Assembly (NCBI GenBank): GCA_963663165.1
Contig: OY760175.1
Coordinates: forward strand, 608,001 to 672,000
Direction of reading: 5' to 3'
Origin: an uncultured Desulfospira sp.
GTDB lineage: Bacteria > Desulfobacterota > Desulfobacteria > Desulfobacterales > Desulfobacteraceae
DNA length: 64,000 bases
Shown here: positions 39,001 through 45,000 of the stretch, one piece after another
Layout: each line of letters opens with the position of its first letter
Numbering within the stretch: the first letter of the stretch is position 1
Made by a program: the position numbers

Positions 39001-42000
39001 GCCCGTTTTCCATTGAAATTCAAGGCCGGGACCCTTTTTTCGGCCACGGCCTTGAAAAAAAGAACACGGATTCATCAGGAACGCCCCTGTCCCGGGATAA
39101 ACAAAAGCAGCCGCCGGAAGGGGGGCCAATGGGGCCTTCTCAAGGCCCCCAGAAAGATGTCTCAGGTTCTTTGCCTTCTGACCTGTTGGCCCACCGGTCG
39201 ATTTTGATCACCTATCCCCATTCTTCGGGGGAAATGGAAATGACGGTTGCCCAGGCAGGGGATTACGGTATTAAGCTTGGCATGAAAATAATAGATTTTT
39301 CCCGTCTGGTGTTTGAGGCCCAAATCAGGCTCGACGCTGTACTGCCTGATGAAACCAGTGATTTCAACAATCCGGTTTGCCTTGTACTTTCAACCACAGG
39401 GCGCGGTCAGGGATTTATGCCGGACAAGGGTTCCATGGGGGACATGCCCGGTAACGGCCCGGGCGGCCCCGGGGGCGGCGGTCCTATGGGCAACGGGGGT
39501 GCCCCCGGAAACGGCGGGCCCCCAATGCAGCAGGGCGACAAGCGCAATGCAGGCCCCTTTGAAGCGATGGTCAAATTTCATCTTGCCGGCATGCCGTAAA
39601 CATTGAAGCGACGGGTTCTTTTTTTAAGCTTTTCATAAAAAAAGACCCGCCGCAAAGTCTTGGGCTTTGCGGCGGGTCCGGTTAGCAATGATAAGGATGC
39701 TTAGGATGCTTCAAGAATGGTGTCACCGGTCTTGATGCTTTTCTTGTCGCCGGACAGATGCCGGCGCTGTTTGTCTTTATTTTTCGTTATCTGAAGCCTG
39801 ACCTTGTCAAAAAGGGTATCGATCACAGCGTAAAGGTTGTTTTCAGCCTCTTCTCTGGCGTGGATTTTAAGTTTGTCACAGTTGAGTTTGATGTCTGCGC
39901 TGTTGCGCAGCTTTTCAACTCCAAGAACGATGTGTGCATCTGCTGGGAAATCCAGCAGTTTATCAAGCCGTTCGAATTTTTCCTGAACGTGGCTTTTTAC
40001 CGCTTCTGAAGAGTCAATGTTTTTGAAAGTAATGGATATTTGCATAGAAACCTCCTGAAAAAGGTAAACAGCACCAGGGGATTACGGCCTTATGATGAGC
40101 CGGCGCAGGCAAAACACCCATCCTAATTGTATCGGGGGCGTTTGAGCCGGTATCAGGTCGGTCTGGTGCCCACTATTAACCATAAACTAACATATCCGTC
40201 AGACCTAATCAAATTATTTTGCACCCGACTCACGGTGAATTTGTTCTAACCCTAAAGTAACTGTTCCGTAGCAGTGCTGACGCATGAAAATTTATAGTCA
40301 ATGATATCAATGACGCAGCTCGATATCCAAAATTATTTTGTCGCAAAATTTAAATAGACAAAATTTCGGCCTTTTGATAATGTAGCATAGGGTACGAATG
40401 AGCGCCCCCCCAATCGAGACACTACATTTGAAGAGGAGGATGTCGTGATTGTCCAATGTGGCCGGAAAATTAAAGACGAAGAGCTTATACAGATTTGCGA
40501 GACAGTAGAGACCTTTTCGAATTTGAGTCAGACTGAACTGGCTCATACAATATGCGAACATTTGGGCTGGTATACCGCTTCTGGTAGGAACAAGGTGGAT
40601 GCCTGCCGGAAATTGCTTCTGCGACTGGAGTCCCAAGGTCTCATACGGTTGCCTGAAAAAGAGAAACTCGGTCCCATAAAGGGCTCTCAACAGAAACTGC
40701 CGGTAGCGGACGACAGGACCCAGCCCCAAGATAAGGTAGCGGGCACGCTTTCGGATATCGGGCCGATCGTTGTCAGGGTCGCACAAGACACGGAAGAACG
40801 CTCACTGGTTAATGAATACCTGCACCGTTACCATTATCTTGGCTACAAGCGGCCGTTCGGATGTCATCTGCGTTATTTGATACAAGCTCAAGAGCGCATA
40901 TTGGGATGTATGCTGTTCTCAGGGGCGGCCAAGGCGCTGACCCCGAGGGATCGATGGATCGGCTGGAGCACCAACGAACGCTTAAGAAACTTGGGATTTG
41001 TTGTAAACAATGGACGCTTCCTGATTTTTCCGTGGGTCAAGGTCCGGTATCTGGCAAGTCACGTATTGGGTAAAATTGTCAGAGATCTGGTGCAAGACTG
41101 GGAGCGGAGCTGGGGGTATCGGCCGGCTTTGCTGGAGACCTTTGTCGACCCACAACACTTCGATGGGACGTGCTATCGGGCGGCCAATTTTAGACACCTT
41201 GGCATGACCAGCGGAAAGGGGCTTGTCCGGCAGGGTAGAAGTTACAGGACCAGTCCCAAAAAAATCTTCGTTTATCCGCTGGTGAATAATTTCCGTCAGG
41301 TTTTGAGGCAGATCGGATGAGCAAGCCTAGCCGACGCCCCAATCGTGAGGAGATAAAGGCCAAAAGAAAGCAGTTTAAAAAGGAGCAGAGAAAATTACGT
41401 CGGGATGAAGAGGCCAGGGGATTTCAGCCGCCCTCTCATGGCACAATTTCTAACTGCAAATGCCGATATGAAAGTGTAGAACAGGAGGGGCGCATCCGCA
41501 ATGAGGCCGTGGCTGAGAAAATGAGTATTTTTCGCGCTAAGCTGCCAATTCTGCTCAAACGTATGGCCAAGATTGAAGACCCTCGAAACCCTAAGAAGAT
41601 AAAACACCAAATATCCACACTCATGATCTATGGGATACTGACCTTTGTGTTTCAGATGGCTTCTTGCCGTGAGGCCAACAAAGAAATGAGCCGGCCGATG
41701 TTCTGGAAGAATCTTCAATATTTTTTCCCGGAGCTTGAAACGCTTCCCCATCATGATACGTTAAAACGCCTATTGTCTAAGATTGATATCAATCAAATCA
41801 AGAAGCTTCATCTCGATCTGGTCAGAGATCTGATCCGGAAAAAGAAATTTCGACGGTACCTGGTCAATGGCTGTTATCCGATTGCCATAGATGGTACCGG
41901 TAAATTCAAACGCGACTGGCTTTGGGATGAAGAGTGCCTGGAACGTAACATCAAGAAAGAGGATGGCACCAGGAAACAGTATCATGTCTATGTTCTGGAA

Positions 42001-45000
42001 GCTAATCTTGCGTTTTCCGATGGCATGAGCATTCCGCTGATAAGCGAAATCCTGAGCTACACCGAAGGAGATACCGCTAATGATAAGCAGGACTGCGAAC
42101 TCAAGGCGTTTTACCGGTTAGCCTCTTGCCTGAAGGCGGCATTTCCCGCCCTAAAAATTATGGTGCTTTTGGATGGGCTTTATGCCAAGGGCCCCGTGGC
42201 AGAAATTTGCCGAACAAACAAATGGCAGTTCATGATTGTACTGAAAGATGACGCTCTACCCAGCGTAATGAATGAATTTGAAACGCTTGCCGCACTCGAT
42301 ACAGAAAACTGCCACCAACACACATGGGGCAATAGGAAACAGGTTTTTCGGTGGATCAACGCCATTGACTACCGGTTTGGTCCGAACGGCAAGAAAAGTC
42401 AAATCCTGCACGTTGTTGAATGCAAAGAGAGCTGGAAAGAGGTTAGCCGGGAAAGCGGTCAACCGGAAAAGAAAAATAGTCGTCATGTGTGGTTGTCCAG
42501 CGAACCTTTGGACAGATTTAATCTTCACGAACGATGCAACATAGCCGCCCGTTCCCGTTGGTGTATTGAAACCGGTATTCTCGTTGAGAAACATCATGGA
42601 TATGAGTACGAGCACTGTTTTTCGTATGATTGGAACGTCATGAAGGGGTATCATGCCTTGATGCGCCTGGGCCATATGTTTAACGTTTTGGCCAGATACT
42701 CGCAGCGGCTTGCCAGGATTATTGAAGATACCGGCGCACGGGGCCTGATTCGTTTAGTCCGGGATACCATGTCCGGCCCGTGGCTGGATTACATGTGGCT
42801 GGAAGATCGTCTGTCCACTCCCTTTCAACTCCGATTAGTATGACGGCAACGACGGACGGGTAATCGAAAACACTCTCCCAAGCAGAGAGGTGGGAACGCT
42901 ATGTTCGGACCGAAGGACCGTCTTTCGTTTCGGCCATAGTCAGTGTCTGAAGGACTGCCTTTTTGAATTAAAAAAGGCTGGATCTCCCCCCAAAGGGAGT
43001 GGTTAGATCGACTAAAGCCAACCTTTTTTTATTCATGCGTCAGCACTGGTTCCGTAGTGCCCGATTTGTCAATCCATCGTATTCCTGATAATATAGCTGG
43101 TCATTTTTGATTTTAACACCCGTTAAATTGGAAAGGGTTTTTTCAATTTTTATTTTCGGTGGTCTAAGCCTGCTAACCCCTAAAGGATAAGCTTTCTTAA
43201 AAATATGATACCCAATTCTGACGCCCCCAATCCCTTTGAGCCTCTGATGGCGCAGCTTTCCCATGTGCCGGTCCATCAAACCGTGGTCCGGATTTTAGCG
43301 GTCCAGGTTTATGAAATGCGGCAAACTGACCTTTTGGATTGCCTTGAGCATCTTGGATGCCGGGACGAGATGGGCAACCCCTTTTCCTATAAAACCCTGG
43401 GGCCGGTTCTCAAAGCCCTGGTGGCCCAGAAGGCGGTTTTAGTAAACGATGACGGGCTTTCCTGTCCTGAAAATCTAGGAATCGAAATTCTAAAAGAACT
43501 GGCAGCCCGGGGCCAATATACCCGGATTGCCGATCAGGTCCTTAAAGTGGCCCCACTGGTTAAGCCCCAACTAGAACGGCATATTGAGTTCAGGACCATA
43601 AAAGAATTCGCCAGAGCTGTTTTTATGGCCTTGTTCAGTGATTCAGTCCTGGCAGACCCGGATCTTGTCCGAAGGTCCGGGCAGGAGATGGACAGAAAGA
43701 AACGCGGGAAAGAAACCGTGCTGCTCAAGGTCTTTGCCTCTTCTTTCAGGCCAGATTTCATTGACGGAATTTCATTGCCATGGCGATGGAAATTAACGGG
43801 CTGGATTCTGGAAGATATCCGAAAAAAACTGCTCCTTGTTCAAAGCGTCACAGATTATGCCCAACGCCTTGCATCCAAATATCCCGGGCTTGACCAGGAT
43901 ATGATTCTTGCCGATCATTACCTTTTAACCGGAAAACTTGATCTGATTGAAGACAATCCTTGTTTTGACCCGGAAGCGCCACCGCGTTTTTTTGTCCAGC
44001 AGGGGAAAAAGGCCCTGCTAAAGGGTCAAATATCCCAATCGATTTCCCTGTTCCGGCAGGGGCTTGACCGGCTCGAACAAGACCCCCCTTTCCGGCACTG
44101 TTTTCCCCACCCGGAAGACAATCTTTTTTTTCTTTTGGCCATTCTCGGCAGCGGCCGGGAACGGAACCCCGTCCCGGAAAAAGATTATCTGGATCAAATC
44201 AACTATTGGGTGGCAACGCAATCATCTGCCTTAGGGGAACTTTTCAAGGTCATCACAGGCCTTATTGTTCATCAGCCAAGATCCATTGTATCTTCAGAAT
44301 TTCAGGAGAAATCATCTTCTTTTATGAATGAAGATTACCTGGCTGCCTTTTTTTCTGTTTTGTTTAAAAGCTGGGCCCAGGAACCAGGGCTTGGCAGATA
44401 TCAAAAGGACCTTGAAACCATCCGGGAAAAATGTATAGATTTCGGCGCCGAATGGCTTTTGGCAGAAGTCTATTCCCTGATGGCCAGATTAAATTTTAAT
44501 TTTGATGTCAACAACGCCATTGCAGGACAACTGCACCGGGACATGGGGACGGTGAGTCTGCTGGATTTATTCGTCCCGGCAGCCCAGTGGAAAAAGCCCC
44601 TGGCCCTTTTGGCAGGCATGGGAACGGGGGGGGCAGAAAACCTTGACCGGGCTTGCGATCATCCCCAGGACCAGCGGCTTGTCTGGCAGTTGATTGTGGA
44701 TGACCGGGCCAATGGCTGCCGCCTTATTCCCTGTATTCAGCTTAAAACCCCCAAAGGGTGGTCCAAACCAAAATTTTTGGATATCCGGGAATTATACCGC
44801 AATTACCTGACCCTTGATTTTTTAACCCCCCAGGACCATCACATCTGTGCCGCCATTGAGAAAAAGCCCGGCCTGCCCTATGGTGATTCCCCTATATTTG
44901 AGTTTAACCTTGAAAAGGCCCTGCCGGCCCTTGCCGGCCATCCGCTGATTTTTTCAAAACAAAATTTTGTGCAGCCTGTCACACTGGCAATCGGCGAACC

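What a model noticed while it worked through the whole genome (the two positions that open the first line are those of the whole stretch)
40272..43048. IS family with a DruA-like gene that lands 17 bp upstream of sigma-70 -35 boxes
A 2,777-bp insertion sequence is present in 10 near-identical copies (a DruA/DUF4338-like ORF followed by an ISAs1-like DDE transposase; 16-bp inverted ends CAGTGCTGACGCATGA; 9-bp target duplication). The end that follows the transposase gene sits exactly 17 bp from a TTGACA-type box. That box is followed at 17 bp by a TATAAT-like box and, 110-160 bp further on, by a gene reading the same way as the IS. I read this as an IS that recognises sigma-70 promoters (or RNA polymerase bound to them) and inserts in the UP-element region in a fixed orientation, a bacterial counterpart of the safe-haven targeting of yeast Ty elements, with the DruA-like protein as candidate target selector. 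New would b [...]
Evidence so far: blastn finds 10 copies, 99.7-100% identical. Ends and 9-bp duplications were read in 8 copies. Of 9 own flanks, 7 have GTCAA/GACAA ending exactly 17 nt before the inverted repeat and an eighth has TTCAA there; chance per site is about 1/500. Of 10 such ends, the nearest gene beyond is co-oriented with its start 114-161 nt from the IS in 5, and overlaps the end by 13 nt (start probably miscalled) in 2 more. The same 18-nt end occurs in 87 loci of genomes from many phyla. In 85 distinct flanks, positions -22..-18 read G35 T41 C47 A50 A52 of 85, against about 21 expected. In the 24 motif-bearing flanks with 70 nt held, positions -46..-41 are A/T in 17-23 of 24 (21-23 at four of the six), fittin [...]
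(Added by a program. Inside this text positions count along the whole contig: contig position 608,001 is position 1 of the stretch shown here. "Call 12" and the like, gene names such as g00115 and contig names such as C1 are that model's own, and its searches are not shown. The text may have been shortened before it was handed on; [...] marks where a part breaks off. The agent that wrote the report below was given it as the finding of a first reader that could run no searches.)

Follow-up and report, generated by a model that had tools for sequence, protein, structure and literature searches.

The report
Insertion sequence that targets bacterial promoters
A two-gene jumping element, found in many bacterial phyla, lands in one fixed orientation exactly 17 base pairs upstream of the -35 box of ordinary sigma-70 promoters, a kind of target choice not described for bacterial transposons in the papers I could search.

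Summary
The 2,777-bp IS (window 40272-43048) has 10 copies in its genome, all with perfect 9-bp duplications. In 70 non-redundant flanks of the end behind the transposase gene (own genome plus relatives from at least 6 phyla), TTG occupies flank positions 18-20 in 54, against 2 of 43 flanks of the other end and 0-8 at any other offset. A -10-like hexamer follows at spacer 16-18 in 38 of 68, often with the extended-10 TG, far above controls. Eight of 18 flanks without TTG still carry an in-register -10. So the landmark is a whole promoter, anchored at the -35 position.

I infer, without direct proof, that sigma-70 region 4 or RNA polymerase bound at the promoter is the tether (0.55). Direct reading of the hexamer by an IS protein, plus selection, is the rival (0.35).

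The proposal that the DruA-like protein selects the target is not supported. That protein is a winged-helix domain plus a Mom-like GNAT domain. It is fused to two other transposase families, and the one fused family I analysed (20 copies with duplications) shows no promoter motif. The transposase fails the NCBIfam ISAs1 model. I found no published precedent.

The parts
40272..43048 (+). Complete IS, 2,777 bp, one of 10 copies in the genome
40263..40271 (.). Left copy of the 9-bp target duplication GTTCCGTAG
43049..43057 (.). Right copy of the 9-bp target duplication
40272..40288 (+). Left terminal inverted repeat CAGTGCTGACGCATGAA
43032..43048 (-). Right terminal inverted repeat; this is the promoter-proximal end
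40298..40313 (+). Left-end subterminal direct repeats TCAATGA-TA-TCAATGA (the GATATC motif). Conserved in left ends of the Desulfobacterota clade and absent from right ends
40445..41320 (+). ORF1, 291 aa: N-terminal winged-helix-like domain (1-63), linker, then a Mom-like GNAT domain (about 100-290). Pfam DruA/DUF4338
41317..42843 (+). ORF2, 508-aa DDE transposase: basic N-terminus, DDE_Tnp_1_assoc domain, sub-threshold DDE_Tnp_1_4. ATGA overlap with ORF1
42940..43031 (+). Structured region closed by A6GG...CCT7 just inside the right IR; possible terminator or insulator (inference)
   Evidence: z -2.9
43066..43071 (+). -35 box TTGTCA of the target promoter, flank positions 18-23
   Evidence: conserved in the IS-free relative G001
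43086..43094 (+). TG + TAATAT: extended -10 of the target promoter, spacer 17
   Evidence: conserved in G001
43205..47410 (+). Downstream co-oriented gene served by the target promoter (SNF2-family helicase, 1,401 aa). Not part of the IS

Best explanation
This is a two-gene DDE insertion sequence of a very large, so far unnamed family (3,811 transposase clusters at E <= 1e-10). It integrates at a fixed point upstream of sigma-70-type promoters. The staggered cuts fall 8 and 17 bp upstream of the -35 hexamer, about -44 to -52 from the transcription start, which is the UP-element region. The transposase-distal (right) end always faces the promoter, so the IS genes and the promoter read the same way. 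The core promoter and its gene stay intact, which makes this a low-damage landing site.

Shown: the geometry, the orientation, the full promoter signature of the flanks, and conservation of this behaviour across phyla.

Inferred: the landmark is not the bare hexamer but sigma-70 region 4 as positioned by RNA polymerase holoenzyme at a promoter. The transpososome (most likely the transposase) docks rigidly onto it and integrates into the DNA just upstream.

The DruA-like protein (winged helix + Mom-like GNAT) is an accessory factor of transposition. Its role is unknown and it is probably not the selector.
For: (1) Ruler and orientation. TTG at flank 18-20 in 54 of 70 right flanks against 2 of 43 left flanks. 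At least 5 of 6 matches to TTGACA at 18-23 in 36 of 70 against 0 of 43. Offsets 17 and 19 have 1 each. In 34 protein-anchored flanks the hexamer reads T34 T30 G32 A20 C22 A22, and there is no information in the TSD or the 8 nt after it.

(2) Full promoter signature. A -10-like hexamer at spacer 16, 17 or 18 in 5, 24 and 11 flanks, 38 of 68 in all, against 2.4 per other offset. TG sits upstream of it in 19 of 68. A control of 53,733 TTGACA-like sites in the same genome gives -10-like in 5.4%. Among intergenic co-oriented sites the figure is 14.4%, and 25.8% for exact TTGACA. TG plus -10 is 0.3-1.3%.

(3) The register survives a weak -35. Eight of 18 flanks without TTG have an in-register -10-like hexamer (background 6.4%, P 7e-6). 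The register is fixed to the -35 position and floats by 1 relative to the -10, as in natural promoters.

(4) Young copies. The five copies identical to the window's copy in the blastn all have a -10-like hexamer at spacer 16-18, including two intragenic sites.

(5) The target consensus is TTGACA with T invariant at the first position. The IS's own IR core is CTGACG, so the IR-binding specificity is not simply reused.

(6) The targeting is conserved in distant members with diverged IRs, in Acidobacteriota and Syntrophobacteria-type hosts, and in a 137-bp MITE (4 of 4).

(7) A same-genus relative without the IS at this locus keeps the TTGTCA-17-TAATAT promoter, while sequence upstream of the -35 has diverged.

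(8) 46 of 64 flanks of at least 300 nt have a co-oriented ORF starting 50-300 nt from the IS end, median 123.5 (no control was run for this count).
Against: No protein contact with sigma or RNA polymerase is shown.

TTG is more invariant here (T 34/34, T 30/34, G 32/34) than I recall for natural -35 boxes (about 70-85%, textbook figures, not checked here). The ruler is exact to 1 bp. Both would also fit a dedicated DNA reader.

30 of 68 flanks lack a -10-like hexamer. One recent intragenic insertion (aldo/keto reductase gene) has TTGACA without a -10.

There is no compensation between -35 and -10 quality.

Purifying selection for insertions just upstream of real promoters could enrich the -10 signal by an amount I cannot measure.

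One IS copy sits so that the CTGACG of another copy's IR falls at flank 18-23 (L086/L173).

Promoter activity of the flanks is not tested.
Confidence: 0.55

Rival explanations
1. Direct DNA reading. An IS-encoded DNA-binding domain (the transposase N-terminus or the winged helix of ORF1) recognises a TTGACA-like hexamer at a fixed distance. The -10, TG and gene signals arise because only insertions just upstream of real promoters are harmless and persist.
For: Near-invariant TTG and a 1-bp-exact ruler. An intragenic TTGACA site without a -10. 30 of 68 flanks without a -10-like hexamer. No -35/-10 compensation. The IR core CTGACG and the left-end repeats (rc TTGACT/TTGATA) resemble the target, and an IR core lies in register in L086/L173. 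ORF1 has a winged-helix-like N-terminus and a fold nearest to a dsDNA-modifying enzyme.
Against: Eight of 18 flanks with no TTG keep an in-register -10 (P 7e-6). TG plus -10 is in 28% of flanks against 1.3% of intergenic co-oriented TTGACA-like sites. Five of 5 copies identical to the window's copy have a -10, two of them inside genes. The first target position is never C although the IR has C. The left-end TTGA repeats are not conserved outside one clade, while the targeting is.
Confidence: 0.35
2. The DruA-like ORF1 protein is the target selector. This is compatible with either mechanism above.
For: It is always encoded with the transposase in this family, with a 4-nt overlap. Homologous domains are fused to transposases of two other families, which ties the domain to transposition. 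It has a wHTH plus a Mom-like domain, and Mom acts on dsDNA (PMC13219725, passages).
Against: 20 copies of the fused DruA-DDE_Tnp_1 IS with 10-bp TSDs show at most 1 of 20 TTGACA-like hexamers at any offset on either side. The domain is therefore not sufficient for, and not generally linked to, promoter targeting.
Confidence: 0.15
3. No targeting: the motif is chance, part of the IS, or an artefact of how the ends were chosen.
For: None beyond the fact that many 16-mer hits are chance matches.
Against: Perfect TSDs flush with the IRs in 10 of 10 copies, and otherwise unrelated flanks. Ends were classified from interior sequence only. 54 of 70 against 2 of 43.
Confidence: 0.01

Closest known systems
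Tn7 with TnsD at attTn7 (recalled, not looked up here)
   Same: Orientation-specific insertion at a fixed distance from a landmark that lies outside the duplicated target. There is no sequence preference at the insertion point itself. The site is harmless to the host.
   Different: Tn7 uses one chromosomal site read by a dedicated DNA-binding protein plus an AAA+ adaptor. This IS has thousands of potential sites (promoters), only two genes and no identified selector.
Yeast Ty3 and Ty1 retrotransposons tethered to RNA polymerase III factors (recalled)
   Same: Integration just upstream of promoters through the transcription machinery, which spares genes. This is what the IS most likely works like.
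   Different: Those are eukaryotic retroelements with an integrase, and the tether is shown experimentally. Here the tether is inferred from sequence statistics only.
IS1202 subgroup that inserts next to XerCD recombination sites (bioRxiv 10.1101/2022.12.17.520857; search listing and start of abstract only)
   Same: A bacterial IS found repeatedly abutting a short site bound by host proteins.
   Different: Different IS family and landmark (xrs/dif-like sites, mostly on plasmids), not promoters.
ISAs1 family (for example the E. coli H-rpt elements)
   Same: N-terminal DDE_Tnp_1_assoc domain followed by an IS4-type DDE domain. IRs begin with CAG.
   Different: The NCBIfam ISAs1 model does not match. 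This IS is 2.8 kb with two ORFs and a 508-aa transposase. Three K-12 H-rpt copies show no TTGACA at 18-23 (too few to conclude).
Phage Mu Mom and Druantia DruA (DUF4338)
   Same: The ORF1 C-terminal domain is nearest to Mom (VIA-align Z 14.9, rmsd 3.4, 164 residues aligned; next best 12.3) and matches Pfam DruA.
   Different: No Druantia partners: the gene lies inside an IS. The PADLOC DruA model matches only weakly (E 2.5e-4 over 50 residues). Catalytic residues were not examined.

Membership tests
ISAs1 family of insertion sequences | Transposase matches the curated ISAs1 model (NCBIfam NF033564) | tested here: not met
   No NCBIfam IS model matches except IS1380 at E 0.006, 15 bits against a cut-off of 180. 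NF033564 finds nothing in the whole genome despite 10 copies, while it rings in the E. coli control.
ISAs1 family of insertion sequences | DDE_Tnp_1_assoc N-terminal domain plus a DDE_Tnp_1-type catalytic domain | tested here: inconclusive
   PF13808 is above its cut-off (45.5 against 32.3 bits). The DDE part is only sub-threshold (PF13701, 19 against 34.7 bits). Some homologues carry PF01609 or PF13701 in precomputed hits.
ISAs1 family of insertion sequences | Single-ORF element of about 1.2-1.5 kb (recalled; the K-12 H-rpt is 1,291 bp) | tested here: not met
   2,777 bp with two ORFs.
Druantia defence system, DruA | Match to DruA/DUF4338 | tested here: met
   PF14236, E 3e-40. The PADLOC DruA model matches only at E 2.5e-4 over 50 residues.
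Druantia defence system, DruA | Encoded in an operon with DruB-E, including the large DruE helicase (recalled definition) | tested here: not met
   The gene lies between the IRs of an IS, followed only by a transposase. All 10 copies have unrelated flanks. The SNF2 gene beside the window's copy is outside the IS.
Sigma-70-type promoter (identity of the target) | TTGACA-like -35, spacer 17 +/- 1, TATAAT-like -10, frequent TG at -15/-14 | tested here: met
   with the genome control.
Sigma-70-type promoter (identity of the target) | Transcription starts about 7 nt after the -10 | not testable with these tools
   No RNA run holds the stretch.
Tethered or selector-guided transposition (works like Tn7/TnsD, Ty3) | Fixed distance and orientation to a landmark outside the duplication, with no preference at the cut sites | tested here: met
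Tethered or selector-guided transposition (works like Tn7/TnsD, Ty3) | Physical contact between the transposition proteins and the landmark factor | not testable with these tools
   This needs binding or transposition assays.
Mom-like GNAT | GNAT fold closest to Mom | tested here: met
   8bv8_B is top in Foldseek (E 2.9e-6) and in VIA-align (Z 14.9, against 12.3 for the next) on a pLDDT 94 model.
Mom-like GNAT | Catalytic residues and DNA modification activity | not tested
   No residue-level comparison was made.

The most novel reading that the evidence does not exclude
A widespread bacterial IS family uses sigma-70 or RNA polymerase holoenzyme sitting on a promoter as its integration tether. 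It would be the first bacterial counterpart of Ty1/Ty3-type targeting and a natural, phylum-independent marker of promoters. Its obligatory partner, a winged-helix plus Mom-like GNAT protein recruited independently by three transposase families and by Druantia, would then be a DNA-directed accessory enzyme of transposition. That would also give a lead on what DruA does in defence.
Probability: 0.5. Interest if true: 0.92.

Novelty: new variant of a known kind. Interest (0 to 1): 0.82.

Why it matters
Target choice decides how much harm a transposon does and how it rewires regulation. Bacterial examples of precise targeting are few: attTn7, tRNA genes, REP sequences, Xer sites and guide-RNA systems.

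An IS that finds promoters in hosts from Bacillota to Acidobacteriota, and lands at one exact base pair upstream of the -35 box, would have several consequences:
- It would be a new solution to the safe-site problem.
- It would cut promoters off from upstream activator and UP elements in a predictable way.
- It would offer a compact two-gene system for inserting DNA next to promoters.
- It would give a testable entry into the function of the DUF4338/DruA domain.

Tried and rejected
- Co-folding of transposase + ORF1 protein + the host RpoD region 4 gave 'no answer' (score 0.00). This is neither for nor against binding.
- No RNA run holds the stretch.
- Laying four DNA runs gave no empty-site contig. 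The IS appears as a separate 2,778-nt contig at about 11 times the flank depth.
- The Bacteroidota natural experiment (a different promoter consensus) was not possible. The transposase was found in 2 of 401 genomes searched, both on contigs of about 3 kb that hold little more than the IS. The Bacteroidota loci from the pattern scans (L059, L195, L198) have no transposase in their genomes.
- The test for compensation between -35 and -10 quality showed none.
- The first AlphaFold model from a shallow alignment was poor (pLDDT 58) and was replaced by a deep-alignment model.
- A profile search of ORF1 against PDB sequences gave only an insignificant winged-helix-like hit.
- E. coli K-12 H-rpt elements: 3 full copies, no motif, too few to judge.
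- A clean empty site was not obtained. The same-genus relative is syntenic on both sides but its intergenic region has diverged upstream of the -35.
- The search of earlier findings returned nothing.
- Literature searches found no description of an IS targeting -35 boxes or of DUF4338 in IS targeting. The searches were: DUF4338 + transposase; DruA + Druantia; ISAs1 family + target site + promoter; insertion sequence / 35 box / site-specific; transposon / target site selection / RNA polymerase / sigma factor; DruA / GNAT / Mom; safe haven + insertion sequence. ISfinder and TnCentral could not be consulted, and subscription journals are not covered.

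
Full report
**What is in the window.** Positions 40272-43048 hold a 2,777-bp insertion sequence. 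It has 17-nt terminal inverted repeats (CAGTGCTGACGCATGAA) and a 9-bp direct duplication (GTTCCGTAG) flush with both ends. It carries two co-oriented ORFs that overlap by ATGA:
- ORF1 (40445-41320, 291 aa) matches Pfam DruA/DUF4338, E 3e-40.
- ORF2 (41317-42843, 508 aa) matches DDE_Tnp_1_assoc, E 8e-12, with only a sub-threshold DDE_Tnp_1_4 match.

The IS lies between a ribosome-hibernation-factor-type gene on the minus strand and a 1,401-aa SNF2-family helicase gene on the plus strand. Seventeen nucleotides after the right end come TTGTCA (43066-43071), a 17-nt spacer, TG and TAATAT (43089-43094). The helicase ORF starts at 43205.

**Copies in the genome.** blastn over the laid 6.74-Mb genome gives 10 copies. 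Nine are intact at 99.75-100% identity, and one is split in the transposase gene by a 4.3-kb element. All 10 have a perfect 9-bp duplication, and the flanks are otherwise unrelated. Reading outward from the right end, positions 18-23 are TTGACA (5 copies), TTGTCA, TTGACT and TTGGCA, which is 8 of 10. The other two read TTTTTT and TTTGAA. The left flanks show nothing comparable.

**Relatives.**
By my arithmetic about 277 chance matches are expected in 596 Gb. Only 9 loci showed nucleotide similarity to the IS and 15 showed protein similarity.
- A transposase-anchored search gave 28 loci at 58-85% identity. A right end could be placed in 24 of them, and 20 of those 24 have TTG at 18-20.
- A second, more specific pattern scan gave 108 loci.
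- I classified every end from its interior sequence only. First I used tblastn to ORF1 or ORF2, then at least 70% identity of the 40 subterminal bases to an anchored end. This gave 23+25 right ends and 11+11 left ends; 123 stayed unclassified, mostly chance hits.

**The core result.** Merging and de-duplicating left 70 right flanks and 43 left flanks.

| Measure | Right flanks | Left flanks |
|---|---|---|
| TTG at positions 18-20 | 54 of 70 | 2 of 43 |
| At least 5 of 6 matches to TTGACA at 18-23 | 36 of 70 | 0 of 43 |
| Exact TTGACA at 18-23 | 23 of 70 | 0 of 43 |

Neighbouring offsets 17 and 19 have one TTG each, and no other offset exceeds 8. In the 34 protein-anchored flanks the hexamer reads T34 T30 G32 A20 C22 A22. 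The 9-bp duplication and the 8 nt after it carry no information. The hosts named in the records include Desulfobacterota, Bacillota, Lentisphaerota, Armatimonadota, Spirochaetota and Kiritimatiellia. More distant members, with diverged ends (CAGCACTGACGCGTAG in an Acidobacteriota MAG; CAGTGCTGACGCATAA in Syntrophobacteria-type genomes), keep TTGACA or TTGCGT at 18-23.

**The flanks are whole promoters.** I defined a -10-like hexamer as A at position 2, T at position 6 and at least 4 of 6 matches to TATAAT.
- It starts at spacer 17 in 24 flanks, at spacer 18 in 11 and at spacer 16 in 5. In all, 38 of 68 flanks have one, against a mean of 2.4 per other offset.
- Aligned on that hexamer, the two bases at -15/-14 are T in 22 and G in 25 of 38. 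This is the extended -10 TG, which my criterion did not select for. TG plus -10 occurs in 19 of 68.
- Of 64 flanks of at least 300 nt, 46 have a co-oriented ORF of at least 60 aa starting 50-300 nt from the IS end, median 123.5. I ran no control for that count.

As a control I scored all 53,733 TTGACA-like sites (TTG plus at least 5 of 6 matches) of the window's genome against a crude ORF map.

| Sites | -10-like at spacer 16-18 |
|---|---|
| All TTGACA-like sites | 5.4% |
| Intergenic | 11.2% |
| Intergenic, co-oriented, 30-300 nt from an ORF start | 14.4% |
| Exact TTGACA in that last class | 25.8% |

TG plus -10 is found in 0.3-1.3% of these control sites.

**Mechanism or selection?** Selection alone cannot set a 1-bp register, but it could enrich real promoters among the survivors. 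Three observations argue that the promoter as a whole is what is recognised.
1. Among 18 right flanks that lack TTG at 18-20, 8 still have a -10-like hexamer at spacer 16-18 (background 6.4% per three-offset window, binomial P 7e-6). Among the 57 flanks with TTG the figure is 33. The element therefore keeps its register to the -35 position even when that hexamer is poor, for example TGGCAT, TGTCTT, GTGCAT or TAAACC.
2. The five copies that are 100% identical to the window's copy, and so very recent, all have a -10-like hexamer at spacer 16-18. Two of these five lie inside genes.
3. The first target position is always T, whereas the IS's own IR core is CTGACG. The IR-binding specificity is therefore not simply reused.

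Against this, 30 of 68 flanks have no -10-like hexamer. One recent copy sits at a TTGACA without a -10 inside an aldo/keto reductase gene. -35 and -10 quality do not compensate each other. TTG is also more invariant than I recall for natural promoters (recalled figures).

In the window's genome, 3 of 10 copies are intragenic: an RHS/YD-shell gene, an aldo/keto reductase gene, and the last 55 codons or so of a choloylglycine-hydrolase-family gene. All three are co-oriented with the IS.

I therefore put 0.55 on a tether through sigma-70 region 4 or holoenzyme, and 0.35 on a dedicated DNA reader plus selection.

**Native promoter.** A same-genus genome (G001) has the homologous helicase locus without the IS. 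It is 84% identical from the -35 box onward, and TTGTCA-17-TAATAT is conserved, while the sequence upstream of the -35 has diverged. Synteny with the window's left flank is kept further upstream. This is not a clean empty site. It does show that the promoter is host DNA and is conserved.

**ORF1.**
- With a deep alignment (71 sequences, down to 31% identity) AlphaFold gives a pLDDT 94.4 model. It has an N-terminal beta-beta-helix-helix-(wing)-helix domain (1-63), a linker, and an alpha/beta domain.
- The best structural match of the latter is phage Mu Mom (Foldseek E 2.9e-6; VIA-align Z 14.9, rmsd 3.4, 164 residues aligned), ahead of ordinary GNATs at Z 12.3 or below.
- Mom is reported to transfer glycine from Gly-tRNA onto adenine in dsDNA (PMC13219725, passages read). 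DUF4338 was called a GNAT domain before (PMC10853773, one passage).
- An exhaustive representative search shows the same domain fused N-terminally to DDE_Tnp_1 transposases (about 750 aa, 8 of 8 checked), C-terminally to IS66 transposases (3 checked), and once to a nucleotide cyclase. The domain is therefore tied to transposition.
- I then defined the ends of the fused DruA-DDE_Tnp_1 IS (CAATGGCATT ends, 10-bp duplication, about 2.5 kb). Its 20 copies with duplications show at most 1 TTGACA-like hexamer at any offset, on either side and either strand. The DruA-like domain is thus not sufficient for promoter targeting, and its role remains open.

**Transposase family.** No NCBIfam IS model matches (best is IS1380, E 0.006). 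The ISAs1 model finds nothing in the genome. Sources name the protein only 'transposase family protein' or 'H repeat-associated protein N-terminal'. The family is large: 3,811 clusters at E <= 1e-10, with many contigs of about 2.8-3 kb, which is the IS assembled alone. Three H-rpt (true ISAs1-family) copies of E. coli K-12 show no motif at 18-23, but three are too few to judge.

**Orientation puzzle.** A 137-bp MITE in a Desulfobacterium-type MAG has TTGACA or TTGAAT at 18-23 next to the same end in 4 of 4 copies. That end has the 18-nt tip of the full element's right end, but its subterminal 20-80 nt are colinear with the left end. The tip bases beyond the shared 16-mer may therefore set the orientation. 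This is untested.

**Comparison with what is known.** The behaviour is that of selector- or tether-guided transposition (Tn7/attTn7, Ty3/Ty1; both recalled). Among IS elements, a subgroup of IS1202 that abuts XerCD sites is the nearest concept (listing and start of abstract). In seven full-text searches I found no report of a bacterial transposon positioned on -35 boxes. ISfinder, TnCentral and subscription journals were out of reach.

**Verdict.** Promoter targeting is real, exact and conserved across phyla. The RNA-polymerase tether is the best-supported mechanism but is unproven. The DruA-as-selector idea is weakened.

Noticed in passing
G000 C1:1874151-1878428 (locus L367 102-4379); outside the window: A 4.28-kb element with 24-nt imperfect inverted repeats splits the transposase gene of IS copy 10. 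It has five co-oriented ORFs, including a CHC2 zinc-finger protein, a 582-aa ORF without a Pfam match and an AAA_22 ATPase. It looks like a transposase + ATPase transposon.
   Followed up: partly
L022, L207, L208, L237 (MAG chromosome OY764894.2): A 137-bp MITE of the family. Its promoter-proximal end combines a right-end tip with left-end subterminal sequence. All 4 copies are in promoter register.
   Followed up: partly
L023 and L225 (JAWODD010000034.1, Bacillota MAG): A 4.7-kb variant of the IS with the same IRs and a matching 9-bp duplication (AAGCAGCGA), next to TTGAAT-17-TATAAT. The extra 1.9 kb was not examined.
   Followed up: no
L086 / L173 (Candidatus Parabeggiatoa MAG): Two IS copies lie 12 nt apart, right end to left end, so that the CTGACG core of the second copy's IR falls at flank 18-23 of the first.
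   Followed up: no
P0341, P0357, P0316, P0247 (representative proteins): The DruA-like domain is fused C-terminally to IS66-family transposases and once to an adenylate/guanylate cyclase domain. Target sites of the IS66 fusions were not examined.
   Followed up: no
window 42940-43031: The right end of the IS folds into a stem closed by A6GG...CCT7 directly inside the IR (z -2.9). It is possibly a terminator that insulates the downstream promoter.
   Followed up: partly
L333-L335 (OZ253507.1, Marinacidobacterales MAG): Another DruA-bearing element with different ends (GGGTGYGGCTCTTTTGGAAC) and 9-bp duplications. Flank 20-23 reads TGAC in 2 of 3 copies, too few to judge.
   Followed up: no
run X3, laid on window 40309 to 43024: One contig of a DNA run joins IS position 38 to 25 nt before the right end (it skips 2,714 nt). 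This may be a mini-derivative of the IS in another organism.
   Followed up: no
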